From a virus (lineage: Duplodnaviria > Heunggongvirae > Uroviricota > Caudoviricetes): 64,000 bases of DNA. The notes under the pieces were generated by a model. It made no database searches. It was not told where the DNA came from and saw only the letters and a list, made by a program, of their open reading frames with translations. This document shows positions 7,179-55,532 of this stretch, piece by piece. The translations under genes were made by a program, and so were the position numbers. Positions within the stretch are counted from its first letter, which is position 1; each line of letters opens with the position of its first letter. The stretch is from positions 24,798 to 88,797 of IMG/VR virus record IMGVR_UViG_3300017649_000001. One strand, written 5' to 3'.

Positions 7179-7759
7179 TGGCAAAGATATTAATCGCAGG
7201 ACTTGATGGATCTCTGCGCAACTTCGGCGTTGCCCTGATGTGGCTCGACACCGAGACGCTCGAACTTTCGATACACGATCTTGTTCTGATCAAGACCGCG
7301 AAGTCGAAGGATAAGAAGGTGCGCTCGTCGTCGGACAATCTGTCTCGCGCTCTGGAACTGAAGAACGGAGTTCACGCTGCTCTGCGCGGTGTAACGACCG
7401 CCTTTTATGAGGTGCCATCCGGCGGACAGGATTACAACGCCGTTCTTGGCTTCGGCATCGTTATCGGCACCTATGCGGGACTTCCCGTCCCCGGCGCAGA
7501 GGTCTCTCCTTTCGAGACAAAGCTGAACGCTGTCGGTACGCGAACCGCCTCGAAGGATGAAATGATCGAGTGGGCGTTCAACAAATATCCTATGGCTCCA
7601 TGGCGCACTCGCAAGCTCAAGGGTGAAATCGTCCCGACGAAGGACAACGAGCACCTTGCGGACGCCGTAGCCATCGTGGAAGCTGGCATCAAAACGCCCT
7701 CTTTCCAGCAGACGCTCGCCATCCTGCGATCACAACATCTTGTGGCTCAGGCAGCCTAA
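7178..7759 (+). CDS. RuvC-like Holliday junction resolvase (RNase H fold)
   Basis: 'ILIAGLDGSLRNFGVA' matches RuvC 'ILGIDPGSRVTGYGV'; C-terminal 'LADAVAIVEAG' matches RuvC 'ADALAIAITH'. Confidence 0.6.
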   Translation: MAKILIAGLDGSLRNFGVALMWLDTETLELSIHDLVLIKTAKSKDKKVRSSSDNLSRALELKNGVHAALRGVTTAFYEVPSGGQDYNAVLGFGIVIGTYAGLPVPGAEVSPFETKLNAVGTRTASKDEMIEWAFNKYPMAPWRTRKLKGEIVPTKDNEHLADAVAIVEAGIKTPSFQQTLAILRSQHLVAQAA

Positions 7760-39581: not shown

Positions 39582-39875
39582 ATGACAAACGCAACCAAGA
39601 AGACCTTCGCCGAGCTGGTGGCAGCGGAAGAAGCCGCCAAACACAATTCCGATCTGTCGAACCTTGCGACGGCACTGCTCAATATCAAGCGGACACGCTT
39701 TGAGCTGCAAGCATTTGTGGACGCTCTCACCGAAGAGCTTCACGAAACCGAAGCTGAGATTGATCGCCTGGTTGCTCTTATCGAGAGAGGACATGAGGTT
39801 GATGTTAGCAAGATTTCCGCTGTCTACAACAAGGCGCAACGTCCGACGACGCGATACGAGAAGTTTCAAGCTTAA
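39582..39875 (+). CDS. hypothetical protein
   Basis: RBS aaggaag before ATG 39582. Confidence 0.4.
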   Translation: MTNATKKTFAELVAAEEAAKHNSDLSNLATALLNIKRTRFELQAFVDALTEELHETEAEIDRLVALIERGHEVDVSKISAVYNKAQRPTTRYEKFQA

Positions 39876-39902
39876 CCTAAACACCTAGATAGGCTTTTAG
39901 TC

Positions 39903-40313
39903 ATGTCGCACGTTCTCATTAAAGCCACGTCGGTTCTGTCTGCTATTCCAGCAGCGCTTCGACGCATCGAAAAGGCGCGTCAGAACGCCCACTTAGGTGC
40001 AATCGAGAGTTACAAGACCAAGAAAGTGTCGCGCGGTCTGTTTCGCACCGAAGTTGTCGTCGTATCGGATGAAGAGGCTGACGAAGCCTACACCAAGGGC
40101 GATCAGATGCTTGCCGATCTTTGGTCTGGCTACCCGACGCCGCGCCAGGAGAACGACGCTCATTACGATCGTCTCGTTCACAAGGTGAATGTTCTGCGCA
40201 ATCTTGCCACCGCCTCGATAGCTCACGGCGACGGCTACGTCACAATGACCGGAGATGATCTGCGCATTCTTCCGATGCCGTCGAACATTCTTCGTAGCGA
40301 GGAGGCGGCCTGA
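39903..40313 (+). CDS. hypothetical protein
   Basis: ORF. Confidence 0.45.
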   Translation: MSHVLIKATSVLSAIPAALRRIEKARQNAHLGAIESYKTKKVSRGLFRTEVVVVSDEEADEAYTKGDQMLADLWSGYPTPRQENDAHYDRLVHKVNVLRNLATASIAHGDGYVTMTGDDLRILPMPSNILRSEEAA

Positions 40314-42526: not shown

Positions 42527-44430
42527 TTGGCTTCTTTACCACACCTCTTATATTCGGTTCATATCAGTTGTTTAAGAACGACAATCAACCAAAGGTCCGT
42601 CAAAAGCCGAGTGCTTGCCTTTGAAAAAGCGTATATTGAGAGCAGCAAATATCGAAAATAAAAACGAGCTTTGAAGACCGCTGTTACCAGCGGTCTTCAA
42701 GACGCGCAGCCGGCGGTCGTGTCTGTGAGGGAATAACACCGGCAGTTGGTGGCTTAATTTCGTAAGCCGAACCAACCGGAGACTTTAGCAAGAGGGCTTG
42801 TAACCCTTGTCTTCGAGAACAAAAATGCACCGCGATGGCAGTACGTGTGGAACAAAAAACGTCTGCTCGTCATCTTCCGATGACGTGAATGGAGGGTGTG
42901 GTATGCGTAGTACCACACCCTTTTTCATGCTTTACCAGAACTTAACATCCCATTGACAAATGCCCTAAATCGTCAACTCCAGTAAATCAGCCATTCATTT
43001 TCAGTTTGCGAAAGTAGACCAATCACTTCGTCAAATCAGCCACCAGACTGACAGGACGTAAATCAGGCCAGTCGTGAAACGCCGGCCAGCTTGTCGCTGA
43101 CTTTACCCGGAGTTTACAAAACTGGTCTGAAAGACTTGTTTTGACCTTTTGTAAATCGACGCAGACGATCACAGGCTCGATCCGACAGATGAAGAGCGCA
43201 CTTGTACGCTAGGCGTCGCGGATCTTCACCAGTGAGCATTTTTGAAGATTTCAAAAGAGTAATTTCTCGATAGCACCAATTCAGATTCGCACAAGAGATT
43301 TCTGCGGTGCGTAACTCAAAACCGCCAATAATCAGAACGACTGGTCCAGCTTCCCGCGCCAACTCTCAGATAAGCAAATAACTAGATAGGTAATTACCTT
43401 TTGGCCGAGACAAGCAAATAACTAAACTGCGCGAAACCTCGAGATAATAAGGCATACAGACAAAACACTAAATAGGCAGATAGGTACGTAGTTAGATAGA
43501 CCATAGGAACGAACATCGAGAAGAACCACAAACGATAACGAACGTCAGAACCAAGAGAAGCAAGACTGCCGGTCATAAGAGAAAGCGACAGAGCGATAGA
43601 GAGGAAGATTCTCACGCAAAGGTGAAAACGATACATAGATGAGAAGCGCCACTAGAGAACCCGATCATAGATCGAACGCATGAGAAACGCCTTATAGAGA
43701 GCTGAAGGTGAGATATGCGTATAGGGGTGAGAAAGATGCGCTAGACAGAAAGAACCTGTGAAAGTGTGAGACGGAGGAAGTGCGAGCGGCGCCTATGGCA
43801 TTTTTCCATAAACCGCCCCAATGGTTCACCTCCGTCAGCCAATTCCGGAAAAATTAGGAACCAAGGCGTTTTCCCATGGGCACGACCACATAGGCACACA
43901 GGCTCGCCCATCCCCTGCCCCGTAACCGCACGCCTACACGTCTATAAAGGCACGCAGGTAAACAGGCACATAGGCTTTTAGGCATAAACCGGAACATTGT
44001 TGCACCTATATGGAAAGAAGTTTCCACAAACCGAGCGGGATCGTTCCCGGAGCTTTCTTCCCACACTGCGAAAAGAGCCAACTCTCTATATATTATATAA
44101 ATAGGTACATAGGCATTTAGGTATATTTGTATTTAGGGAGTTGGACGAAATTGCAGAACTCCCGGTAGCGCGACCAATGGTTTCCCCAGACCGGTTATAA
44201 CTACATGCCTAAGCGCCTAAATCGTCAAATAACTACTTCCATAGGCCGGCCACAGTTCTCGCCATACCCCGGCTCCCATGTATGGAATATTTTTAAGATC
44301 AAATAAGCCACGTTTCCATGCATATAAGCCGAATGTAACCCGTCACGCGTTTTGATACTTTCAAATCATAGAGAGCACGAGGCAAAGGCGCTCTAGTGAA
44401 ACGAATTTCAACTCTGATGAGGAAAGTATC
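42527..44430. other. 1.9-kb ORF-free repeat- and hairpin-rich noncoding region; candidate origin, centromere or ncRNA locus
   Basis: No plausible ORF; purine-only tract ~43400-43790; ATAGGYA tandem iterons; CCWWWGG heptamers. Confidence 0.6.
42893..42927 (+). terminator. intrinsic terminator inside the noncoding region
   Basis: ggtgtggtatgcgtagtaccacacc hairpin followed by CTTTTTC. Confidence 0.55.
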
Positions 44431-45294
44431 ATGACCGAAGTATCCAATCTGCATCTTGACGTTGTTTCCGCCAACGCAATCGCCAACGATGTTGACCTTA
44501 ACGATATCGACGCGCTGATCGCTGCGGCCGAAAAGGAAGAAGCCACACAGAAGCTGATCGACGAAGCCAAGCAGGCCGCACTTGATGCGCAGGCCGAGCT
44601 GGACCAGGCCAATGACGACGATACGGGCGAGGCCGTTTCTGAGACGACCGTTAATATCACGCCGGTATTCGAAGAAGGCGACATTCACCAGATGCGTAAG
44701 AGCGTCGACGGCAAGACCGTTGAAAAGATCCGCGCAGAAGTGACGGCACAGTTCGATCAGCGCACCAAGTTCCACGCTGACAACGATCCGCACAACACCA
44801 ATATCCAGAAGAACCTGGCGAAGTACCGTCAGCAGTTCTCCTCGCCGCACACTGCCGGTGTGATCGCAGCGTGCAAGATGGAGGTTTCTTTCATCAATCG
44901 TGTGAAGCGTGGCGAACAGTGCTTCAACGTCTATTCGGTCGAGAAGGTCTCCAAGCTGATCAATCAGATCGTGCTCGGTGTCGCCAACAACGCCTATAAC
45001 GACGCCATCTTCAAGTCGATGTGGAACTTCATGAAGGCGAAGGTGCCTTTCACCACAGAAGCAGCCAAGGCAGCGATCTCCGACCAGATTGCGGTCAAGG
45101 ACAAGCAGATTAAGGCGCTTCTCGTGCGCCATACTGTGAAGCCAGGTACTGCGTCCACACAGTCGAGTTCCTCGCTGCGCGCGATGGAAGTTCTGGGCAT
45201 TGTGCGCAACGCCGGTACTGAAGGTCGCCAGGTGTGGGTGCTGAACGATAATCCGCAGATGCGCGCTGTTGCAGCGAGCTATGGACTGAACTGA
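44431..45294 (+). CDS. hypothetical protein
   Basis: RBS gaggaaag; strong terminator downstream; the overlapping 404-aa minus ORF is judged spurious. Confidence 0.5.
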   Translation: MTEVSNLHLDVVSANAIANDVDLNDIDALIAAAEKEEATQKLIDEAKQAALDAQAELDQANDDDTGEAVSETTVNITPVFEEGDIHQMRKSVDGKTVEKIRAEVTAQFDQRTKFHADNDPHNTNIQKNLAKYRQQFSSPHTAGVIAACKMEVSFINRVKRGEQCFNVYSVEKVSKLINQIVLGVANNAYNDAIFKSMWNFMKAKVPFTTEAAKAAISDQIAVKDKQIKALLVRHTVKPGTASTQSSSSLRAMEVLGIVRNAGTEGRQVWVLNDNPQMRAVAASYGLN

Positions 45295-45318
45295 GTTAGG
45301 AGTGAGACGAGCATAATA

Positions 45319-45352
45319 GGGGCCGGAGTTACATCTGGCCCCTATTTTTATG
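45319..45352 (+). terminator. intrinsic terminator
   Basis: ggggccggag...ctggcccc hairpin followed by TATTTTT. Confidence 0.65.
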
Positions 45353-45658
45353 CGTGATTGCTGACCATTGGATTTTTGGGGAACCAAGGCGAATGGCCTA
45401 TGGGTTGAGAAGCTGCGGGAAGAAGGCGCGACCAATGGGAGCCGCGGGACGGCGGAACGCACAATTAGGCAAATAGGTATTTCGGCATATAGGCTTGTAG
45501 GCACGCTTCTCACCTTCCGGCCATAGGTTGACGCATATCTCGCGTTGGAGCGCGCCAGTGACGGTTTATGCGCGTTTTATGATATGCCGTTTGTAACTAC
45601 GTAGTGATTTAGCTATTTAGTTATTGTCTGAAACACAAACGAGAAAGATAGCCTCACC

Positions 45659-45970
45659 ATGAAGATCACCTTTAAAGTCGAGTTCCACGAATATGACGAA
45701 ATGAACGACGCCCTGTTCGCCATTGTCAGACGAGTCGACGCCAATGAGGAATTTGAGATCTATAATATTCGCGCTCATTTCGACACAGCGATTTACGGCA
45801 TCGAATACGCTCTTCCAGAACGCGCAGAAGCCGAAGTTGATTACGCACCAACAATTCTGCTGTTCTTCATGCGCGCATTCAAAGACCGCTACGCCAAGCT
45901 CGATCACACCGCATCGCCTGCAGATGTGTTTGGTGAGGAACTTGTGTTCACACTCGACATTGACGCCTAA
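45659..45970 (+). CDS. hypothetical protein
   Basis: ORF; terminator aaaagcagc-ttcg-gctgctttt follows at 45974-46000. Confidence 0.45.
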   Translation: MKITFKVEFHEYDEMNDALFAIVRRVDANEEFEIYNIRAHFDTAIYGIEYALPERAEAEVDYAPTILLFFMRAFKDRYAKLDHTASPADVFGEELVFTLDIDA

Positions 45971-46233
45971 CGCAAAAAGCAGCTTCGGCTGCTTTTCTTT
46001 ATGTGACGATCGACCATAGGCCAGGCCATTGGTCATCAGGCCGTTTCCAGGCGCCAGGCCAATGGTTATTTACCTATTTCCCTAAATCCCTACCCGCCTA
46101 TAAGCCTATCTCCTCACGGGACACTTCCGGACGCTCGAGCATTTACCGCATTCGGCTCACTACATGCCGATTTAGTTATCTAGTGATTTAGTTAGAATAA
46201 ACATATCGAAACACTCACTAGAAAGTCACTCAC

Positions 46234-46617
46234 ATGAACAAGATCGAAGCCACCATCCGCCAGCACGCTCGTATCATCGCAGACGCTGACGAAATGCTGG
46301 ACGCGCTCGAAGATATCTCGCCAATCGTGGCACAGCTCAACATCGTCGATCGCCCGAAGAAGGACACGCCGGTCTCGCGCAAGCTTCAAATCATCAAAGA
46401 GATCCGCGCTCGCTGTGATGCAGCCATCATGAACATGCTCGACCAGATCACCGATTACGACCTGATCGACAAGATTTTTGCCGCTGCCAACGAAATCAAT
46501 GCCGAGCGTGCTGCTGACCGTGCGGCACTTGCCAAGATCAAGCGCGAGCGTATGGAGAGAATGAACGCCCATCGCGCCAACGCACAAGTCGCCGATCAAG
46601 TCGCTGTCGCAGCCTGA
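46234..46617 (+). CDS. hypothetical protein
   Basis: ORF after a palindrome-motif variant; hairpin terminator at 46635-46671. Confidence 0.45.
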   Translation: MNKIEATIRQHARIIADADEMLDALEDISPIVAQLNIVDRPKKDTPVSRKLQIIKEIRARCDAAIMNMLDQITDYDLIDKIFAAANEINAERAADRAALAKIKRERMERMNAHRANAQVADQVAVAA

Positions 46618-47076
46618 GACCACACGAGCGCGCCACGTCATGTGCAGCGCGCTCTCTTTTGAGCACTAGTTAGGTTTTCAGGCAAATAGGCAGATAAGCA
46701 TGTGGCAGATACCTATGGAACTAGATAACTGAATAGGCAGGTAGGCAAATTGCCTATGGAATATCGCCGGACGAGGATTTCGGATTTTTGGGGAACGGCA
46801 GTCACCACATAGGGAGCCGGCGTATGATGGCACAAAGGCGGGCTAGGGCGGCTTCCTATGGTGAGCGCCCGCGGGAGGCGGGGAATGGCATAAATCCATT
46901 CCCCTTATAGGCCAGGCCATTGGTATCGCTAAACCACCAATGGACTTGCGGCCTATGGCAATCAGGCCGATTTCAAAGCCAACCCCATCAAAATGCGCCA
47001 TTCCTCCGGGGGCGATAGGAATGGCGCACGTATTTGACAGGTAATTGCCTATTTAGCCATATAGGCGTTTAACTAC

Positions 47077-47307
47077 CTAGAGCAAGGCAAGCGGGTCGTC
47101 AAAGAAACGCTTTCGCAGATTGTGGGGCACAGAATTATCCTCGCAAAAGGGCAGCCCCAGAAGATCCATCATAAGGTTGGTCGATTCCGCGGATTCGCGC
47201 ATGGACCGAAGTCTGTCCCGTCGTGCCCGGTCAAAAGCCAGTTTCTGGCGTGCCGAGAGATTAGGGCGGTCGAAAATGGGCAAAGTTGCCATATCAGCGC
47301 ACCTCAC
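47077..47307 (-). CDS. hypothetical protein (minus strand)
   Basis: Overlaps the upstream minus ORF by 14 nt. Confidence 0.3.
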   Translation of the reverse strand: MRCADMATLPIFDRPNLSARQKLAFDRARRDRLRSMRESAESTNLMMDLLGLPFCEDNSVPHNLRKRFFDDPLALL

Positions 47308-47488
47308 ACGCGAAAATCGTTTCCATCGTGACGTTTCCCACGTGGGTCACTTCGGTGAGCTTCTCGCGCTGGAGCTGGTAGCCAATGCAATCTTCCTGGG
47401 TAAGACCCGTGTCGAGAATGAACTCCTCGGATTGCGTCCCGTGCGTTGGCGACGAAAAGAGCGTTATGGCGATAAGAGCGAATTTCAT
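47294..47488 (-). CDS. small secreted protein (minus strand)
   Basis: Signal peptide 'MKFALIAITLFSSPTHG'; palindrome-motif variant upstream on the minus strand. Confidence 0.35.
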   Translation of the reverse strand: MKFALIAITLFSSPTHGTQSEEFILDTGLTQEDCIGYQLQREKLTEVTHVGNVTMETIFACEVR

Positions 47489-47750
47489 TGTGAGTTGCCT
47501 TCGTTGTTTGTCACTAATCGTTTAGTGATTTTGTTATAACTGATTAGTGAGTAATGAAAATCGGCTTATGAAGTTTCTCACATGGTAATTTCTAAGCAGG
47601 GAAGGGCGCCCGCGACCGATGAATCTCCGGATACGAACCAATGAGCCTGGCTAACCGTCCCCGGCAATTCCAATGGATCCGCCACTTTTGGATTTTTGGG
47701 GAACGGATGCAAATCCAATCAGGGGAACCGGTACATAGGTACATAGGTCT

Positions 47751-47832
47751 CGTGTGTGCGTGCGCATGTGCGTGCGCATGTGCATGTGCATGTGCATGTG
47801 CATGTGCATGTGCATGTGCATGTGCATGTGCG
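47751..47832. repeat. hexanucleotide microsatellite (CATGTG)n, about 9 perfect plus 4 imperfect units
   Basis: Tandem gcatgtgcatgtg...; gives artefactual His-Ala and Cys-Ala repeat ORFs on both strands. Confidence 0.9.
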
Positions 47833-48055
47833 CTCATGCGTCATGCGCACGCATGATCGAGATAACTAAATAGATAGTGATTTATTCGCTCAAAAACACG
47901 TCATAGAAGCGTTTCAGCGCGTTTCTAGTATCATTTGTCATCTGAAGCTAGAAACGCGCTCTAGAGTCAAATTTGAGCGTTTTTCGCAAAGCGTCATAGC
48001 GTGTCAATGATAGCGTTTCGCGCATGAACGCATGACACATGCGCAAAACGCAAAA

Positions 48056-48127
48056 AAGCGCTCATATAGAGCGCTTTGAAGCTTTAGCAGATAAGAAAAG
48101 CGCTCTATTGCTAGAGCGCTTTCAAGT
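48056..48127 (-). terminator. two tandem intrinsic terminators for the minus-strand gene 48131..48730
   Basis: Hairpins aaagcgctc-atata-gagcgcttt and aaagcgctcta-ttgc-tagagcgcttt; each is followed by a T-run when read on the minus strand. Confidence 0.55.
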
Positions 48128-48130
48128 CTG

Positions 48131-48730
48131 TTATGCAAAGAATTCTTGCATCTTTGCAAGCGCGTCTGCATCTTTGTTAATTTTGAAGAAATTAACTCTT
48201 TCTTTTCTCGAAACTAGATCAAGAATTTTGAAGAAACGCAATGCAACGCTTGACGATGACGCTTGCGTGTCGCAAGTGCGAGCGTCTTTTACTTCATTGC
48301 GCTGATAGACAAGCGCTTTCAATTCGTCTGTAAGAACAATCTTTTCATCGACATTATTCTTTGTGCAAGCAAGCTTGAGAACGCTTGACGTGATATTTTC
48401 TTTATCATTCTTTACATGCAACAAAACAGTTCGCGTCACACATGCATGAAAGTCTTGCATCTTTTTGCTGTCATAAAACATGACAGAAAGCATTTCGCGA
48501 ATTTTGTTCAACGCATAGATATTATCATTCAACATAGATGCATCAGCGTTGATTGTGTCGAGATATTTTTCAACTTTCTCATATGAAACTAAATTCATCA
48601 GCTTAATCATGTTAGCTGTATTGTTATCAAGCTTGTCGCTTGCGCTTTCTTTCTTGCGTGCTTCAACGCGAGCGTTGATGATTGCAGCGTATTTGTTGAG
48701 CGTAGCAGTTTTTGCGTTGTTCTTCGACAT
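48131..48730 (-). CDS. hypothetical protein, AT-rich minus-strand gene (likely horizontally acquired)
   Basis: 199-aa Lys/Asn-rich ORF with GC far below the genome average; palindrome motif upstream on the minus strand; tandem terminators downstream. Confidence 0.5.
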   Translation of the reverse strand: MSKNNAKTATLNKYAAIINARVEARKKESASDKLDNNTANMIKLMNLVSYEKVEKYLDTINADASMLNDNIYALNKIREMLSVMFYDSKKMQDFHACVTRTVLLHVKNDKENITSSVLKLACTKNNVDEKIVLTDELKALVYQRNEVKDARTCDTQASSSSVALRFFKILDLVSRKERVNFFKINKDADALAKMQEFFA

Positions 48731-49134: not shown

Positions 49135-49662
49135 ATGACGAAACCGCATACAGGGCTACCCGTCGCAGGATATCAGTCGCAGAGCGATGAAGCGGTGGCC
49201 GCCGTAAACCGCAATAAAGTGCTGGAAGAAGTGGCCCTTCGGGCCATCGAGCGGGCAGGGGAGGAGCTTGAAGGGCTGGATCCTCGTGCGCTGGCACTTG
49301 CAAAGACCAAGATGCAGGAAGCCTTCATGTGGTTCAATCGAGCCATCTTCCAGCCCAAGCGTATTGAGGGCGATCTGCCAATCGATGTGAGCCTGTTCTT
49401 CGACGAAGGATTGGTTATCGACCACAAGCTTCACGGCAAGTTGCAGCTTTTTCCGTTCACGGGCACAGCCGACAGCGCCGCAGCGCTCGCCAAGAAGCAT
49501 TCCTCTATCGTGACCTACTATGATGACGATCTGGATCGTTGGAGCGTCAGTGTGTCGTCGATTGATGGTGGAACTGTTGAGCTGGCAATTGGCGATTACC
49601 TCGCTATCGCTCGTTCAGGTCGCGCAATTGCGATGCCCAAAGAGACGATTGAGCTTCCATGA
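49135..49662 (+). CDS. hypothetical protein
   Basis: ORF after the palindrome motif; ATGA overlap with the next gene. Confidence 0.45.
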   Translation: MTKPHTGLPVAGYQSQSDEAVAAVNRNKVLEEVALRAIERAGEELEGLDPRALALAKTKMQEAFMWFNRAIFQPKRIEGDLPIDVSLFFDEGLVIDHKLHGKLQLFPFTGTADSAAALAKKHSSIVTYYDDDLDRWSVSVSSIDGGTVELAIGDYLAIARSGRAIAMPKETIELP

Positions 49663-50795: not shown

Positions 50796-51095
50796 TCAGC
50801 CTTTTTCTTTGCTCTGACGACCGCGCAGCTCTTTCTCGACCTCAATAGCCTGAATGTGCTCTGACCGGCGCCAGTCGTTAAAAATCTCAACGAGGAAGTC
50901 ACGCATCGACATACCGCGCTGTGTGGCGTGCATTTTAAACTCGCGGTGCCAATATTCCGGCATATTGAAGGTCATCGAGACGATCTTCTTTTGCTTCATA
51001 TTGTCGGCAGCGGTTGGTTTCAGAGCCGAAGCTGCGCCCAAGAAACTCTTCCGACGCTCAGACGGCTTGATTGGAACGGGGGAGTCGTCAGACAT
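50796..51095 (-). CDS. ribbon-helix-helix DNA-binding protein (ParG/CopG-like)
   Basis: 'KIVSMTFNMPEYWHREFKMHATQRGMSMRDFLVEIF' is an RHH fold; immediately downstream of ParA on the same strand. Confidence 0.55.
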   Translation of the reverse strand: MSDDSPVPIKPSERRKSFLGAASALKPTAADNMKQKKIVSMTFNMPEYWHREFKMHATQRGMSMRDFLVEIFNDWRRSEHIQAIEVEKELRGRQSKEKG

Positions 51096-51741
51096 ATTCT
51101 TCCTCTACCAGCTTGTTCACTTTGCGAATGATTTCGTCCATCAAACCCATGGCGCGGTCGTTTAGCGTCTTGAAATTGCTTTCGCTGATAGCCCGACCGG
51201 TGTTTTGCGCCATCTGATAGCCAATTTTATAGGAAAGCTCGCTCTCGGCGATCTGGAACTCGGCTTCGCTGATGTAATTGCGAGCATCTGTAACAGCGTT
51301 TGTCGATTGATCCGACGTCTTGTTCAGGACGAACAGAATACGATGGTTCTCGACACCTTTGTTTCGCAGCTCCATAGCAAAGGCGACCTGCGGCTTCAGA
51401 TCATCAAATGTCAGACCCGTCGGAATGATCACAAGCGAGGATTGCTGAGCGATTGCGAGCGAAGTGATATCCGAGTCTGGCTTGCCATCGGCAACGACCA
51501 GATCCACTTCTTCGTGCTTGATAGCTGTCGGCGAATTGAAAGGCTTCACCTGGATAGCAGGTTCAACGCCTTCTGCCGCGCGTATCTTGCCCCAATCGGA
51601 GGCCGTGTTCTGACGCGTATTGAAATCGGCCAGCAAAACGCTCCAATCGTTCTTCACAAAGGTATGCGAGATCAAACGAGCGAGTGTTGATTTTCCGACG
51701 CCGCCCTTTTGCGAAAGACAGGCGATGACGAGATCGGCCAT
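51088..51741 (-). CDS. parA: ParA/MinD-family partition ATPase
   Basis: Deviant Walker A 'LSQKGGVGKST'. Confidence 0.85.
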   Translation of the reverse strand: MADLVIACLSQKGGVGKSTLARLISHTFVKNDWSVLLADFNTRQNTASDWGKIRAAEGVEPAIQVKPFNSPTAIKHEEVDLVVADGKPDSDITSLAIAQQSSLVIIPTGLTFDDLKPQVAFAMELRNKGVENHRILFVLNKTSDQSTNAVTDARNYISEAEFQIAESELSYKIGYQMAQNTGRAISESNFKTLNDRAMGLMDEIIRKVNKLVEEEYV

Positions 51742-52011
51742 TTCTACACCTCTGTAGTTAGATAACTATCTGCCTAGATAGCTTCATTCCTACATAGCTA
51801 AGTAAGCCAATTCGGTTAACGGGTCATTAAAAAAATATAATAGGTAAATGCCTATTTAGTGATTTAACTATTTACTTAGTGAGGAATCGGCTTTATATTC
51901 AGGAACAGTTGATGTTGCTGTTGACTATCGGGGAGAGGGGGTTACGCCTCTGACCCTTCTCCCCACTCTCTTATGGGCACCTCCTCCTATATCCCATACT
52001 TAAATGGCCGC

Positions 52012-53662: not shown

Positions 53663-54406
53663 ATGATTACGCCACGATATTTCGACGTTTCTGTCGGGGA
53701 ATTGCGCAAAAATCCATGGAATACGAACATCGTCAGTCCGGAAAACGAGCTGAAGATACGTAACTCCATCAAGCGCAACGGAATTTTTAAACCTATCCTC
53801 GTTCGCGAGATTGCAGGCGAGAGTGGTTACGAGATCATTGGCGGCGAACATCGATGGGAGCAAGCCGTCGCGCTCGGTTTCACCGCGGTTCCTGTCTGCA
53901 ATCTCGGCGCTATCTCCGAGAAGCAGGCCAAGGAGATTGGTATCATCGACAATGCGCGTTACGGCGCGGATGACAGCCTCGGTCTTGCTGAACTTCTGAA
54001 AGAGATATCGGACAGTATCGAGGATATTCAGGAATTTCTCCCATACGGCGAAGCTGATCTTGATGATTTGTTTGGCTCAATGAGCGCTATAGATCTCGAC
54101 AGCCTGGGGATTGACGACGAAGCAGCAGAAACCGAAGCGGAATTGCTAACCGAGCTTGCGCTGCCGACGCCCAAACCGTCCAAAACTCACACAATCATGC
54201 GCTTCAAGGTTTCTCTCGGTGACGCCGAGCGCCTTACTGCGCTCGTTGCAAAGACCCAGAAAGAGCAGGGCTTGAGCGGCTCCGAGGATCTGATCAACGC
54301 CGGTGATGCCCTTGTTCACCTTCTGAGCGAGCACCTTTCCACCAGCAAAGCCAAGTCCCTCGAAGAGCAGTTGGACGAAGCATTCAAGGATGAAACCAAT
54401 GAGTGA
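53663..54406 (+). CDS. ParB-N/sulfiredoxin-like nuclease-domain protein
   Basis: 'ILVREIAGESGYEIIGGEHRWEQAVALG' ParB box; divergent from the helicase gene with a palindrome motif in the shared promoter region. Confidence 0.65.
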   Translation: MITPRYFDVSVGELRKNPWNTNIVSPENELKIRNSIKRNGIFKPILVREIAGESGYEIIGGEHRWEQAVALGFTAVPVCNLGAISEKQAKEIGIIDNARYGADDSLGLAELLKEISDSIEDIQEFLPYGEADLDDLFGSMSAIDLDSLGIDDEAAETEAELLTELALPTPKPSKTHTIMRFKVSLGDAERLTALVAKTQKEQGLSGSEDLINAGDALVHLLSEHLSTSKAKSLEEQLDEAFKDETNE

Positions 54407-55088
54407 AATCGATCATTCAAAGCAGGCGATCGAAATCTGGGATATCGATAAGATCAAACCCTACGAGCAGAACGCCAAGATTCACGATGATGCACAGGTG
54501 GAGAGCCTGTCGCGCTCGATCAGTAAGTTTGGCTGGTCCTCGCCAATTGTCATCTGGACCGACGGCGTAATCATCGCCGGGCACGGTCGCCGTCTCGCAG
54601 CCCTTAAACTCGGGCTGAAACGTATCCCTGTCATCGTTCGCCGCGATCTGACGAAGCTTGAAGCCGACGCCATGCGCATCGCTGACAACCAGGTCGTCAG
54701 CAAGAACTACGACACCAATATTATGTCCGACGAACTCCGTCGCATTAATGCGGAGCTGGAGATCGGCGGCGGAGATTTCGAGCTTTTCGATCTCGGCTTC
54801 ACATCCAAGGAGCTTGATATTCTGGTCGAGCCTCTCGAGGAAATGGATCTCAGCGTCTTCACTGATGATTTAAGCGAAGCATTGGCCGAGCAGCGCGAGA
54901 AAAACGAGGCGATTGTCGCTTCCATTGACGAAACCGCAGCCCCAGTCGGCGACGCCTTTGGCTTCAAGCGGGTGACAATTGAGCAGTCTCGTGAAATCCG
55001 CAACTTTATGCGTCAGATCGAGACGGTCGAAGGACAAAAAGGGGCGGACGCCCTTTTGGCTTTCTTTCGTAAGTACATCACTATCTAG
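54390..55088 (+). CDS. ParB-N-domain protein (second copy)
   Basis: 'PIVIWTDGVIIAGHGRRLAALKLG' ParB-N motif. Confidence 0.65.
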   Translation: MKPMSEIDHSKQAIEIWDIDKIKPYEQNAKIHDDAQVESLSRSISKFGWSSPIVIWTDGVIIAGHGRRLAALKLGLKRIPVIVRRDLTKLEADAMRIADNQVVSKNYDTNIMSDELRRINAELEIGGGDFELFDLGFTSKELDILVEPLEEMDLSVFTDDLSEALAEQREKNEAIVASIDETAAPVGDAFGFKRVTIEQSREIRNFMRQIETVEGQKGADALLAFFRKYITI

Positions 55089-55106
55089 GCATTTAGGCTT
55101 TTACCT

Positions 55107-55532
55107 ATGTCAGAAAACGTCATCGATATTCGAACCCGCAAAACACGCGAGATTCCCGATCCGGAAGTTGAAAAACTGAAAGAAGAGGAGGCTCGAAAGT
55201 CAGCGATGAGCGAGCACCACGAAAGCTTGCTTAGATATCTCGACCAGGTGAGGGATTTGATCCTCGATGGCAAGCTTGAAACTCTCGTTCTGATCTCGCG
55301 CCACATAGAGACCGGTCACTATCACACTGCGTCAATTATCGACGCTAAAGCGACCGATCTCACAAAAGTTTACGGACACATCGGCGTTCTCGAAACCATG
55401 AAACTGGAACTGATGGAAGTAGCCAGTATGGCGCCGGCACTCATGGAAGATGGATCGACGATCGATCCATACAAAATCCACCCAGATATTAACCCGTCCG
55501 ACGACGAATTTGGATTTGAAGAAGATGACTGA
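55107..55532 (+). CDS. hypothetical acidic protein
   Basis: ORF. Confidence 0.4.
   Translation: MSENVIDIRTRKTREIPDPEVEKLKEEEARKSAMSEHHESLLRYLDQVRDLILDGKLETLVLISRHIETGHYHTASIIDAKATDLTKVYGHIGVLETMKLELMEVASMAPALMEDGSTIDPYKIHPDINPSDDEFGFEEDD

What the first reader, a model, noticed from the sequence alone, without database searches (positions are those of the whole stretch)
43431..43470. Tandem ATAGGYA iterons scattered through the noncoding DNA
Examples are aaATAGGCAgATAGGTAcg (43431), cacATAGGCAcacAGGC (43896), acATAGGCttttAGGCAt (43963), gtacATAGGCAtttAGGTAt (44107), aaATAGGTAtttcggcatATAGGCttgTAGGCA (45468), aaATAGGCAgATAAGCAtgtgGCAGATAcctatgg (46686), tgaATAGGCAggTAGGCAaattgcctat (46732), ttgcctatttagccatATAGGCg (47047) and gtacATAGGTAcATAGGTc (47731). 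Further copies lie beside parA at 51770-51850 and at 55085 just before 55107..55532.

Direct repeats of a 6-7-mer at helical spacing are the classic signature of iteron-type origins and of partition sites.
Basis: seen in the sequence. Interest (0 to 1): 0.6.

Follow-up and report, generated by a model that had tools for sequence, protein, structure and literature searches.

The report
Eight-base repeat arrays for partition protein
The ATAGGYA repeats are real, but they are arrays of 8-base units and most likely binding sites for a small ParG-like DNA-binding protein encoded beside parA in a phage-plasmid, which is a familiar kind of plasmid partition and repressor system rather than a replication origin.

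Summary
The motif is real and non-random: 24 ATAGGYA in the window against 6.3 expected, 14 of them in 43386-47741. The description needs correcting. The first example lies at 43472-43486, not 43431. The repeat is a strict 8-bp register (consensus WTAGGYAW), not helical spacing. Arrays hold 3 to about 12 units, in direct and inverted orientation.

The window belongs to a roughly 112-120 kb family of alphaproteobacterial siphophages and plasmid-prophages (RHph_X66, B1VFA, pLM21S1). Relatives carry the same 8-bp TAG-core arrays with lineage-specific cores. Seven of eight relatives have such an array directly upstream of parA.

In the window, parA (217 aa, small Walker type) is followed by a 99-aa ribbon-helix-helix protein. 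Its closest solved relative is ParG of plasmid TP228 (profile E 3.3e-5; top fold match). ParG-type dimers are known to coat 4-bp boxes separated by 4-bp AT-rich spacers, which is an 8-bp register.

Best reading (about 0.55, binding inferred): these are operator and centromere arrays of a type Ib partition system, scattered over several promoters and intergenic regions as in pSM19035. An iteron-type origin is not supported. I rate it a new member of a known kind, of modest interest.

The parts
43384..43399 (.). Inverted pair of units: AGATAGGT AATTACCT
   Evidence: Read.
43448..43503 (+). Array of 7 units in 8-bp register, 4 of them strong: ATAGGCAG ATAGGTAC GTAGTTAG ATAGACCA.
43888..43903 (+). 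Two units: ACATAGGC ACACAGGC
43946..43985 (+). Five-unit array: AAAGGCAC GCAGGTAA ACAGGCAC ATAGGCTT TTAGGCAT
   Evidence: (families D1/D2).
44101..44140 (+). Five-unit array next to a roughly 50-bp AT-rich patch: ATAGGTAC ATAGGCAT TTAGGTAT ATTTGTAT TTAGGGAG
44197..44236 (-). Five-unit array on the minus strand: GTAGTTAT TTGACGAT TTAGGCGC TTAGGCAT GTAGTTAT
45465..45504 (+). Five-unit array: TTAGGCAA ATAGGTAT TTCGGCAT ATAGGCTT GTAGGCAC. In the 97% relative L003 it is replaced by a different TAGG array, and the cassette junction lies here.
45601..45624 (+). Promoter-proximal three-unit array (GTAGTGAT TTAGCTAT TTAGTTAT), 35-58 nt upstream of the ATG at 45659 and just downstream of a TGCCGTT box
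46070..46109 (-). Five-unit array on the minus strand: ATAGGCTT ATAGGCGG GTAGGGAT TTAGGGAA ATAGGTAA
46172..46195 (+). Promoter-proximal three-unit array (TTAGTTAT CTAGTGAT TTAGTTAG), 39-62 nt upstream of the ATG at 46234
46669..46763 (+). Longest array: about 12 units with one 1-nt register slip, direct plus inverted units. It lies right after the terminator of the 127-aa gene, in a convergent intergenic region with no downstream gene. It is the best candidate for a centromere-like platform.
   Evidence: The orthologous position in L004 also carries arrays.
47037..47084 (+). Six-unit mixed array: ACAGGTAA TTGCCTAT TTAGCCAT ATAGGCGT TTAACTAC CTAGAGCA
47517..47556 (.). Degenerate TAG-type units overlapping the putative promoter of the minus-strand 64-aa gene (ATG at 47488), downstream of an AAGCCGAT box
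47728..47751 (+). Three units (CCGGTACA TAGGTACA TAGGTCTC) abutting a (TGTGCA)n microsatellite
51762..51801 (-). parA-proximal five-unit array, 21-60 nt upstream of the parA ATG: TTAGCTAT GTAGGAAT GAAGCTAT CTAGGCAG ATAGTTAT. Operator-like, and orthologous arrays occur in relatives.
51834..51889 (-). parA-distal array of about 6 direct and inverted units, including ATAGGTA and ATAGGCA, next to an AAGCCGAT box
55085..55108 (+). Three-unit mini array (CTAGGCAT TTAGGCTT TTACCTAT) that runs into the ATG of the 141-aa gene at 55107
39874..39905 (+). Four-unit mini array (AACCTAAA CACCTAGA TAGGCTTT TAGTCATG) that runs into the ATG at 39903
51088..51741 (-). parA: a small (217 aa) Walker-type partition ATPase
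   Evidence: Pfam CbiA and AAA_31, PHROG ParA-like, NCBIfam ParA_partition at 81 bits, below its cutoff.
50796..51095 (-). 99-aa ParG-like ribbon-helix-helix protein overlapping the end of parA. Proposed binder of the arrays. It has a disordered N-terminal tail with a conserved basic patch followed by SFL. Ribbon IVSMTFNM, with S40, T42 and N44 at the presumed base-contacting positions.

Best explanation
The ATAGGYA heptamers are the visible part of 8-bp repeat units: a 4-bp box TAGG (TAGY/TAGT in the promoter-proximal version) plus a 4-bp, mostly A/T, spacer. The units form arrays of 3 to about 12, in direct and inverted orientation.

The arrays are most likely binding sites for dimers of the 99-aa ParG-like ribbon-helix-helix protein encoded just downstream of the small Walker-type parA. 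In this model one dimer sits on each unit and neighbouring dimers bind cooperatively, so each array is coated.

Two roles follow, both inferred:
- Short arrays overlie the putative promoters of parA and of at least three small accessory genes (ATG at 45659, 46234 and 47488). There they would act as operators, giving autoregulation and co-repression.
- Longer promoter-distal ATAGGYA arrays, above all the roughly 95-bp array at 46669-46763 in a convergent intergenic region, would act as centromere-like platforms. On these the flexible N-terminal tails of the RHH protein would engage ParA to partition the plasmid form of this phage-plasmid.

Shown here: the arrays, their 8-bp register, their conservation beside parA in relatives, the RHH fold and its ParG affinity.

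Inferred: that this protein binds these arrays, and the split between operator and centromere roles.
For: 1. The register is strictly 8 bp. Units occur in both orientations.

2. Promoter-distal and promoter-proximal units share the frame T2-A3-G4...A7. The parA-upstream arrays mix both unit types.

3. Seven of eight relatives examined have an 8-bp TAG array immediately upstream of parA: L004, X66, pLM21S1, N1_15, L009, L010 and L011. The Methylobacterium plasmid L006 does not. B1VFA (L002) was not checked at that position. Each genome's other arrays use that genome's own core: TTAGSY in L004, TAGCT in X66, B1VFA and pLM21S1, TTAGCGA in N1_15.

4. The ORF after parA is an RHH protein.
- Alone it gives a Pfam ParG hit at E 0.094, and its top PDB sequence hit is ParG 1P94.
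- A 7-sequence family profile gives ParG at E 0.052, and the next three hits are also RHH proteins.
- A 54-homologue profile gives ParG at E 3.3e-5 and then the Mnt repressor.
- Of the 54 homologues, 28 hit Pfam RHH_10 and 16 hit ParG.
- The AF2 model has pLDDT 86.5 with an extended segment, two helices and a disordered tail.
- Its top Foldseek PDB hit is ParG, followed almost entirely by Arc, CopG and other RHH proteins.
- It is the only ParG-like ORF in the window.

5. The literature matches the register. ParG dimers each bind one 4-bp box, and boxes are invariably separated by 4-bp AT-rich spacers, in direct or inverted orientation: 8 boxes in the operator and 12 in the parH centromere. ParG homologues with other ribbons use other boxes in the same register, and changing the spacing by 1 bp impairs binding (PMC3130281; PMC3413123).

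6. pSM19035 shows that an RHH partition protein can use several scattered arrays that overlap promoters (PMC9499535).

7. Ribbon residues vary with the box. S-T-N goes with TAGG/TAGY, G-T-N with TAGCT (X66 and pLM21S1 share both the ribbon and the box), D-N-K with TTAGCGA, and the D-S-K ribbon in the Methylobacterium plasmid goes with no TAG arrays.

8. The strain behind L003 and L253 encodes the identical RHH protein and keeps TAGGY units even where an array has been rebuilt.

9. Array orientation does not track gene direction, and the largest arrays lie in a convergent, promoter-less intergenic region. That fits dimer-binding or centromere arrays better than promoter elements.
Against: - No binding data exist.
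- The window protein alone is below Pfam's ParG threshold.
- The promoter-distal units (G at position 5 in 40 of 46) differ from the promoter-proximal and parA units (T or C at position 5 in 9 of 11). Two different proteins could therefore read the two classes.
- X66-type relatives have the promoter-proximal arrays but few or no distal TAGG arrays. The distal arrays are therefore not essential to the family.
- The covariation rests on only five or six ribbon types, and N1_15 keeps the TAG core despite a very different ribbon.
- The same intergenic regions carry other, even more region-specific motifs (CCAWWGG, GGATTTTTGGGGAAC) that this model does not explain.
- Plasmid maintenance of this particular element is inferred from relatives only.
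Confidence: 0.55

Rival explanations
1. The distal ATAGGYA arrays are operator or enhancer-like sites for a different, unidentified phage or host regulator of an early or accessory gene island. Only the promoter-proximal TAGY arrays would belong to the ParG-like protein.
For: The two unit classes differ at position 5. The arrays lie in a region of small genes that each have their own terminator, a conserved [AT]GCCGAT box at a fixed distance from the ATG, and an unusual leader. The region carries accessory and anti-defence-type genes: Acb2/Tad1 here, and Rap1a in L004. Several unannotated small proteins nearby could be regulators.
Against: The register and the T-A-G...A frame are the same as in the parA arrays, and both unit types are mixed in the parA-upstream arrays. 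No second RHH or HTH candidate was found near the region. The largest arrays have no downstream gene to regulate.
Confidence: 0.2
2. The arrays are iterons of a replication origin, possibly a lytic origin in the 1.9-kb gene-free stretch 42527-44430.
For: A long gene-free region upstream of the 287-aa gene is conserved in the family, 1.2-1.9 kb long. It holds a short AT-rich patch at 44085-44135 beside an array and an unusual purine-rich, T-poor segment at 43500-43790. Octamer iterons are known for phage P4 (from memory, not checked).
Against: The period is 8 bp with contiguous units, unlike 17-22-bp iterons phased at 11 or 22 bp. The arrays are spread over five intergenic regions plus parA, rather than one cluster. 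No Rep initiator was found among the ORFs scanned. No DnaA-box-like site lies between 42.5 and 64 kb. Relatives are reported to replicate with a RepC-like system, and in B1VFA no annotated repC lies within 25 kb downstream or 38 kb upstream of the syntenic region.
Confidence: 0.07
3. The repeats are parS-type sites for one of the two ParB_N-domain proteins (53663-54406, 54390-55088).
For: Two ParB N-terminal-domain genes lie 2 kb from parA. A mini array ends the second one at 55085-55108.
Against: Only the N-terminal (Srx/nuclease-like) domain is detectable, with no HTH or C-terminal match. Classical parS sites are about 16-bp palindromes, not 8-bp tandem units. The genes are divergent from parA and separated from it by the helicase, whereas parA is translationally coupled to the RHH gene.
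Confidence: 0.05
4. The repeats have no sequence-specific function. They would be leftovers of duplicated regulatory cassettes, or recombination scars, in a fast-evolving accessory region.
For: The intergenic regions share long stretches, and the close relative L003 has lost or gained a whole gene cassette by recombination inside them.
Against: Drift does not predict a strict 8-bp phase maintained over up to 12 units. The same grammar with different cores is kept in relatives at 40-68% protein identity. The array at the L003 junction was rebuilt with new sequence but the same TAGG phase.
Confidence: 0.08

Closest known systems
TP228 ParF-ParG-parH/OF type Ib partition system (E. coli multiresistance plasmid)
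   Same: - A small Walker-type ParA, followed directly by a small RHH protein with a flexible N-terminal tail.
- Arrays of short boxes in an invariant 8-bp register (4-bp box plus 4-bp AT-rich spacer), in direct and inverted orientation.
- A proximal array over the promoter and a second array further upstream of parA.
- ParG is the best sequence and fold match of the 99-aa protein.
   Different: - The box is TAGG/TAGY instead of ACTC, and the ribbon is IVSMTFNM instead of KRVNVNFD.
- The window protein alone scores below Pfam's ParG threshold.
- Arrays are also scattered through about 4.4 kb of accessory-gene intergenic DNA, 4-8 kb from parA.
- The host element is a phage-plasmid of Alphaproteobacteria.
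- Binding is untested.
pSM19035 delta-omega system (Streptococcus pyogenes)
   Same: An RHH partition protein that is also a global repressor. There are several separate arrays of contiguous short repeats that overlap the promoters of different genes. One dimer binds per repeat, direct and inverted repeats are both used, and at least 4 contiguous repeats are needed to activate ParA.
   Different: The repeats there are 7-bp heptads (WATCACW), not 8-bp units. Only 1 of 54 homologues gives a weak Omega_Repress hit. Here some arrays lie in a promoter-less convergent intergenic region.
Iteron-type plasmid origins (for example pPS10, F, RK2)
   Same: Directly repeated short sequences in non-coding DNA.
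   Different: Iterons are 17-22 bp, phased with the helix, and clustered next to a rep gene, an AT-rich unwinding element and DnaA boxes. None of these features was found here.

Membership tests
Type Ib (ParF/ParG-like) plasmid partition system | Small Walker-type ParA (about 200-220 aa) without an N-terminal HTH domain | tested here: met
   The ORF is 217 aa. Pfam CbiA/AAA_31 match from residue 5. PHROG ParA-like at 6.5e-25. NCBIfam ParA_partition (203-position model) aligned to residues 5-189, but at 81 bits, below its cutoff of 180.
Type Ib (ParF/ParG-like) plasmid partition system | Centromere-binding protein with a ribbon-helix-helix fold encoded immediately downstream of parA | tested here: met
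   The 99-aa ORF overlaps the parA stop by 8 nt. A 54-homologue profile hits ParG 1P94 at E 3.3e-5 and then Mnt. Of the homologues, 28/54 hit RHH_10 and 16/54 hit ParG. AF2 gives pLDDT 86.5, and the top Foldseek hits are ParG, Arc and CopG. Caveat: the single sequence scores below Pfam's ParG gathering score (13.3 against 21.4 bits).
Type Ib (ParF/ParG-like) plasmid partition system | Array of short repeats upstream of parA serving as operator or centromere | tested here: met
   Arrays at 51762-51801 and 51834-51889. Orthologous arrays occur in 7 of 8 relatives.
Type Ib (ParF/ParG-like) plasmid partition system | ParG-type register: 4-bp box plus 4-bp AT-rich spacer (8 bp), with direct and inverted boxes tolerated | tested here: met
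   Distances fall at 8, 16, 24 and 32 nt only. Both orientations are present. The spacer is mostly A/T. The reference behaviour is taken from PMC3130281 and PMC3413123.
Type Ib (ParF/ParG-like) plasmid partition system | The protein binds the repeats, stimulates the ParA ATPase and stabilises a plasmid | not testable with these tools
   This needs EMSA or footprinting, ATPase assays and plasmid stability assays.
pSM19035 omega-type global regulator/centromere | Several separate arrays overlapping the promoters of different operons | tested here: inconclusive
   Arrays lie 35-62 nt upstream of the ATG of three small genes and of parA, each downstream of a conserved [AT]GCCGAT box. However, promoters are only inferred: the sigma-70 scan is not enriched and there are no transcript data.
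pSM19035 omega-type global regulator/centromere | 7-bp heptad repeats WATCACW bound by an Omega-family protein | tested here: not met
   The units are 8 bp with a TAGG core. Omega_Repress is hit by 1 of 54 homologues at E 0.026.
Iteron-type replication origin | Iterons of about 17-22 bp, phased with the helical repeat, in one cluster | tested here: not met
   The units are 8 bp and contiguous, and are spread over at least 6 intergenic regions.
Iteron-type replication origin | Adjacent rep initiator gene | tested here: not met
   No Rep family was found among about 45 window ORFs scanned with Pfam, PHROGs or NCBIfam. In B1VFA no repC is annotated in record positions 1-63,676, the part that contains the syntenic region. 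Not every small ORF was scanned.
Iteron-type replication origin | DnaA boxes and an AT-rich unwinding element next to the repeats | tested here: not met
   None of the 12 near-matches to TTATCCACA lies beyond 42507. Only a roughly 50-bp AT-rich patch is present, at 44085-44135.
ParB-parS (HTH-ParB) centromere | About 16-bp palindromic parS bound by a ParB with HTH and C-terminal dimerisation domains | tested here: not met
   The units are 8-bp tandem repeats. The two ParB-like proteins match only the ParB_N domain.

The most novel reading that the evidence does not exclude
The 99-aa RHH protein could be a master switch of the plasmid-prophage state in this phage-plasmid family. By coating more than a dozen arrays, it would at once form a distributed centromere and silence a hot-swappable island of small accessory and anti-defence genes. 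Each of those genes is packaged in a standard intergenic cassette: a terminator, CCAWWGG boxes, GGATTTTTGGGGAAC, a TAGG array, an AGCCGAT box, a TAG operator and an atypical TAGAAAG leader. Rapid co-evolution of the ribbon and the box (TAGG, TAGCT, TTAGSY, TTAGCGA) would then set incompatibility and immunity groups within the family. The shared cassettes would drive gene exchange, as seen in the cassette difference between L003 and the window.
Probability: 0.15. Interest if true: 0.55.

Novelty: new member of a known kind. Interest (0 to 1): 0.33.

Why it matters
Published descriptions of this phage-plasmid family (RHEph10, pLM21S1, B1VFA) mention parA, parB and repC. None of the papers found in the searchable library names a centromere-binding protein or a centromere for it.

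This analysis identifies a ParG-like RHH gene and its probable 8-bp arrays. That gives a concrete, testable partition and regulation module for these rhizobial and soil phage-plasmids. It also explains a conspicuous repeat pattern without invoking a new mechanism.

The finding also adds natural pairs of ribbon and box sequence to the ParG family, which has been used to engineer artificial RHH transcription factors. For the genome scan, the main value is that the finding is largely explained by a known kind of system.

Tried and rejected
- Nucleotide similarity of 43000-48200 to GenBank phages and PLSDB plasmids gave no match.
- Protein-guided scans for close relatives of the 287-aa neighbour in viral, genome and metagenome contigs found nothing.
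- Exact scans for the conserved 15-mer GGATTTTTGGGGAAC in genome and metagenome contigs returned 240 loci. None encoded any protein of this region, so they are chance hits.
- The 54-sequence RHH alignment was too diverse for a locus search. The 7-sequence alignment gave 3 viral loci.
- Rfam found no family above threshold in 42.5-52.1 kb. The only hits were spurious miRNA matches to the TGTGCA microsatellite.
- No tRNAs were found.
- Sigma-70-like promoters were not enriched: 5 against 8.9 expected. Promoter positions are therefore inferred only from the conserved box-to-ATG spacing.
- There were no DnaA boxes in the region.
- Phylogenetic footprinting with L003 was uninformative because it is 97% identical.
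- The minus-strand ORFs in the purine-rich segment are not conserved between the window and X66, so I treat that segment as non-coding.
- PDB and NCBIfam searches of the 287-aa and 199-aa neighbours gave no lead to another DNA-binding protein.
- I considered that the region might be the direct terminal repeat reported for B1VFA (3.6 kb) and that the repeats might be packaging signals. No sequence evidence could test this, and the metagenome contig does not end here.
- I considered a role for the 8-bp-spaced TAGs as stop codons in all three frames. I rejected it because arrays occur on both strands.
Full report
**1. The observation**

ATAGGYA occurs 24 times in the 64-kb window against 6.3 expected, and no shuffle reached 24. 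Fourteen copies lie between 43386 and 47741. That stretch is poor in coding sequence, with five large intergenic regions around small genes.

The quoted pair begins at 43470, with the heptamers at 43472 and 43480.

The spacing is not helical. Same-strand distances between TAGG cores are almost exclusively 8, 16, 24 and 32 nt. Strict chains of at least three TAGs at 8-nt steps occur six times, against 0.1 in Markov simulations, and all lie in 43.4-46.2 kb. Allowing one degenerate unit gives nine chains, including one directly upstream of parA.

Written in register, the arrays hold 3-5 units. One, at 46669-46763, holds about 12. The consensus of 46 units is W-T-A-G-G-Y-A-W. A second class lies close to start codons and reads K-T-A-G-Y-K-A-T, sharing T2, A3, G4 and A7. 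Inverted units occur, for example AGGTAATTACCT and TAGGCAAATTGCCTA.

Outside this region the window has such arrays only upstream of parA (51762-51801, 51834-51889), at 55085-55108 and at 39874-39905. So the motif is real and strongly clustered, but it is better described as 8-bp-period arrays than as tandem heptamers at helical spacing.

**2. What the element is**

The window carries these genes:
- UvsX-like recombinase, SbcCD, ribonucleotide reductase and RtcB;
- a protein with an Acb2/Tad1 hairpin domain and an HslV-like peptidase;
- parA, a DEAD-box helicase and two ParB_N-domain proteins;
- large terminase, portal and capsid genes.

The helicase is 68% identical to those of Rhizobium siphophages RHph_X66, V1VFA-S and B1VFA, and 57% identical to the RHEph10 group. 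Gene order around the region is conserved in these phages and in the plasmids pLM21S1 (Sinorhizobium) and an unnamed Methylobacterium plasmid.

The family has been described as plasmid-like prophages, or phage-plasmids, with parA, parB and a RepC-like replication system (PMC12509600, PMC4447125, PMC5537653, PMC7969092).

The window is identical over 20.3 kb to a 112,222-bp metagenome contig, apart from a 24-bp microsatellite difference. Two closer relatives were recovered. L003 and L253 are about 97% identical and come from the same sample. L004 has a neighbouring protein at 66% identity.

**3. Comparative evidence on the repeats**

ATAGGYA itself is not conserved in X66, B1VFA or L004. It is kept in L003, with 10 copies against 0.7 expected.

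The 8-bp register is conserved even where the heptamer is not. A blind scan for 4-mers with excess same-strand pairs at a fixed distance returned the following:
- TAGG at 8 nt in the window and in L003;
- TTAG at 8 nt in L004;
- AGCT/TAGC at 8 nt in X66, B1VFA and pLM21S1.

Seven of the eight relatives whose parA upstream region I read have a TAG array immediately upstream of the parA start codon:
- X66, L010 and L011 have a five-unit array (X66: ATAGCTAG TGCCTTAG ATAGCTAG ATAGGGAC ATAGATAG, then ATG), and pLM21S1 has almost the same five units.
- L004 has a six-unit array and L009 a four-unit one.
- N1_15 has a weaker version with TAGs at 16-nt steps.
- The Methylobacterium plasmid has none.
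- I did not check this position in B1VFA (L002).

The other arrays in each genome use that genome's own core.

In L003 the array of the 45465-45504 region has a different sequence but the same TAGG phase (TTTAGGCT TATAGGCA TAAACCTA TCTAGGTA). The grammar is therefore maintained while the sequence turns over, which argues for function.

**4. The candidate binding protein**

parA (51088-51741, minus strand) encodes a 217-aa Walker-type ATPase. It matches small ParA models from residue 5 onwards.

Overlapping its stop codon is a 99-aa ORF (50796-51095). The same arrangement is present in every relative examined. The evidence that this ORF is a ParG-like RHH protein is as follows:
- Alone it gives only a weak Pfam ParG hit (E 0.094), and ParG of TP228 (1P94) is the best PDB sequence hit at E 0.21. 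Both alignments cover the strand-helix-helix core.
- A seven-sequence family profile improves ParG to E 0.052, and the next three hits are all RHH proteins.
- A full HMMER search of 1.8 billion representatives found 56 homologues.
- Their profile hits ParG at E 3.3e-5 and then the Mnt repressor.
- Of 54 homologues, 28 match Pfam RHH_10 and 16 match ParG.
- The AlphaFold model built with this alignment has pLDDT 86.5. Residues 1-34 are low-confidence, residues 36-46 are extended, and two helices follow.
- The model's best PDB fold match is ParG, followed almost entirely by Arc, CopG, AmrZ and RHH antitoxins.
- No other ParG-like ORF exists in the window.
- The N-terminal tail has a conserved basic patch followed by S-F-L. 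That resembles ParA-activating tails of centromere-binding proteins; this resemblance is inference only.

**5. Why the register matters**

For ParG it is established that one dimer binds each degenerate 4-bp box. Boxes are invariably separated by 4-bp AT-rich spacers, in direct or inverted orientation. Eight boxes form the operator over the parFG promoter, and twelve more form the parH centromere (PMC3130281).

ParG homologues with different ribbons bind different 4-bp boxes in the same 8-bp register upstream of their parF genes. Altering the spacing by 1 bp impairs binding, because the register is set by contacts between the helical scaffolds of neighbouring dimers. The hydrophilic residues at ribbon positions 2, 4 and 6 read the bases (PMC3413123).

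The window's units fit this pattern: a box TAGG or TAGY, then a spacer such as CAAA, TATT, CATA or GATT.

At ribbon positions 2, 4 and 6, the proteins and boxes pair up as follows:
- S-T-N in the window, with TAGG/TAGY;
- G-T-N in X66 and pLM21S1, which share the TAGCT box;
- S-T-L in L004, with TTAGSY;
- D-N-K in N1_15, with TTAGCGA;
- D-S-K in the Methylobacterium plasmid, which has no TAG arrays.

This covariation is suggestive. It rests on few lineages.

**6. Position of the arrays relative to genes**

Three small genes (ATG at 45659, 46234 and 47488 on the minus strand) and six small genes of L004 share one upstream layout. An [AT]GCCGAT box lies 69-82 nt before the ATG. A three-unit TAG array follows, and then a leader with TAGAAAG about 10 nt before the ATG.

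The parA upstream region has the same box followed by arrays. The short arrays therefore sit where a promoter would be expected, which suits an operator role.

The ATAGGYA arrays proper lie further upstream, 125-480 nt before the ATG, or in a convergent intergenic region. On either strand, their orientation does not follow gene direction. The longest array, at 46669-46763, starts just after the terminator of the 127-aa gene, and the orthologous position in L004 also carries arrays.

This is closer to the parH-plus-operator arrangement of TP228. It also resembles pSM19035, where an RHH protein uses six separate arrays that overlap the promoters of three genes and needs at least four contiguous repeats to activate ParA (PMC9499535).

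**7. Rival readings**

Iteron origin. The evidence is against it:
- the unit length and phase are wrong;
- there is no Rep gene among the ORFs scanned, and no DnaA-box-like site beyond 42.5 kb;
- the family uses a RepC-like system, and in B1VFA no annotated repC lies anywhere near the syntenic region.

It cannot be fully excluded that the 1.9-kb gene-free stretch 42527-44430 holds a lytic origin. That stretch contains an odd purine-rich segment.

A different regulator for the distal arrays. This is the strongest rival, because the distal and proximal units differ at position 5.

ParB_N proteins. They are unlikely binders of 8-bp tandem units.

A purely neutral origin. This does not explain the conserved phase.

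**8. Verdict**

The repeats are real and are best explained as operator and centromere arrays of a ParG-like type Ib partition module in a phage-plasmid, with binding still to be shown. This is a new member of a known kind. Interest is modest.

The features not explained are the co-located CCAWWGG boxes, the conserved GGATTTTTGGGGAAC element and the standardised intergenic cassettes. They deserve a separate look.

Noticed in passing
window 43501-47670 (19 sites); one more at 7589: CCAATGG, CCATTGG, CCATAGG and CCTATGG are even more region-specific than ATAGGYA: 19 copies inside the region and 1 in the other 59 kb. Relatives have a different version in the syntenic region. X66 has CCTAGG, with 10 of 11 copies there. 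L004 has CC-W5-GG, with 11 copies against 1.1 expected. L003 swaps CCATAGG for CCATTGG at one site. The binder and function are unknown.
   Followed up: partly
window 45370-45384, 46782-46796, 47690-47704: GGATTTTTGGGGAAC occurs three times. The element is conserved as GGATTTGGGGAACGGCAG in RHph_X66 and as GGATTTTTGGGGAACGGC in L004, so it is a conserved non-coding element of unknown role. Exact-match scans of public contigs gave only chance hits.
   Followed up: partly
window 44326, 45585, 46165, 47560(-), 51886(-); L004 upstream of six genes: An [AT]GCCGAT box lies at a nearly fixed 69-82 nt before the ATG of small genes. It lies 95-104 nt before the 287-aa gene and 151 nt before parA. A TAG array follows, and then a leader with TAGAAAG about 10 nt before the ATG in place of a standard Shine-Dalgarno sequence. 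This looks like a family-specific promoter and leader cassette.
   Followed up: partly
window 43500-43790, within the gene-free stretch 42527-44430: A purine-rich, T-poor segment of about 300 nt (AT skew up to 0.70), with repeated ATAGAGA-like words. A segment of similar character exists in RHph_X66. The minus-strand ORFs there are not conserved. Possibly a non-coding RNA or an origin-related element.
   Followed up: partly
window 47755-47831: A (TGTGCA)n microsatellite of 12.8 copies, flanked by alternating purine-pyrimidine GC-rich sequence. It is 24 bp (4 units) shorter in an otherwise identical 20.3-kb stretch of metagenome contig k141_273740, so the repeat length is polymorphic or unstable in assembly.
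   Followed up: yes
window 45659-45970 and flanking intergenic regions; L003 1590-2009: The 97%-identical relative L003 lacks the 103-aa gene. Its single intergenic region is a hybrid of the window's two. The junction lies at the TAGG array (about 45460-45510) and the start of the next intergenic region (about 46000-46020). The repeated intergenic cassettes appear to mediate gain and loss of genes.
   Followed up: yes
window 48131-48730 (-) and 53663-54406 (+): The 199-aa gene has low GC (about 40%) and no known domain, and is conserved in position in all relatives. Its part covered by L253 (48384-48730) differs from the close relative at 23% of nucleotides, and parB1 at 7.3%, while neighbouring genes differ by less than 1%. 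This is a mosaic pattern, or these genes evolve fast.
   Followed up: no
window 47860-48130: Repeated CATAGCG and AGCGTTT words and inverted repeats lie downstream of the 199-aa gene. A similar CATAGCG-rich stretch is present in RHph_X66 at the same place.
   Followed up: no
window 49135-49662: The ORF has an Acb2/Tad1 hairpin domain (Pfam E 4.7e-15), a domain of phage anti-CBASS and anti-Thoeris sponge proteins. In L004 the neighbouring variable region carries a gene of the Rap1a family. The region may be an accessory or anti-defence island.
   Followed up: no
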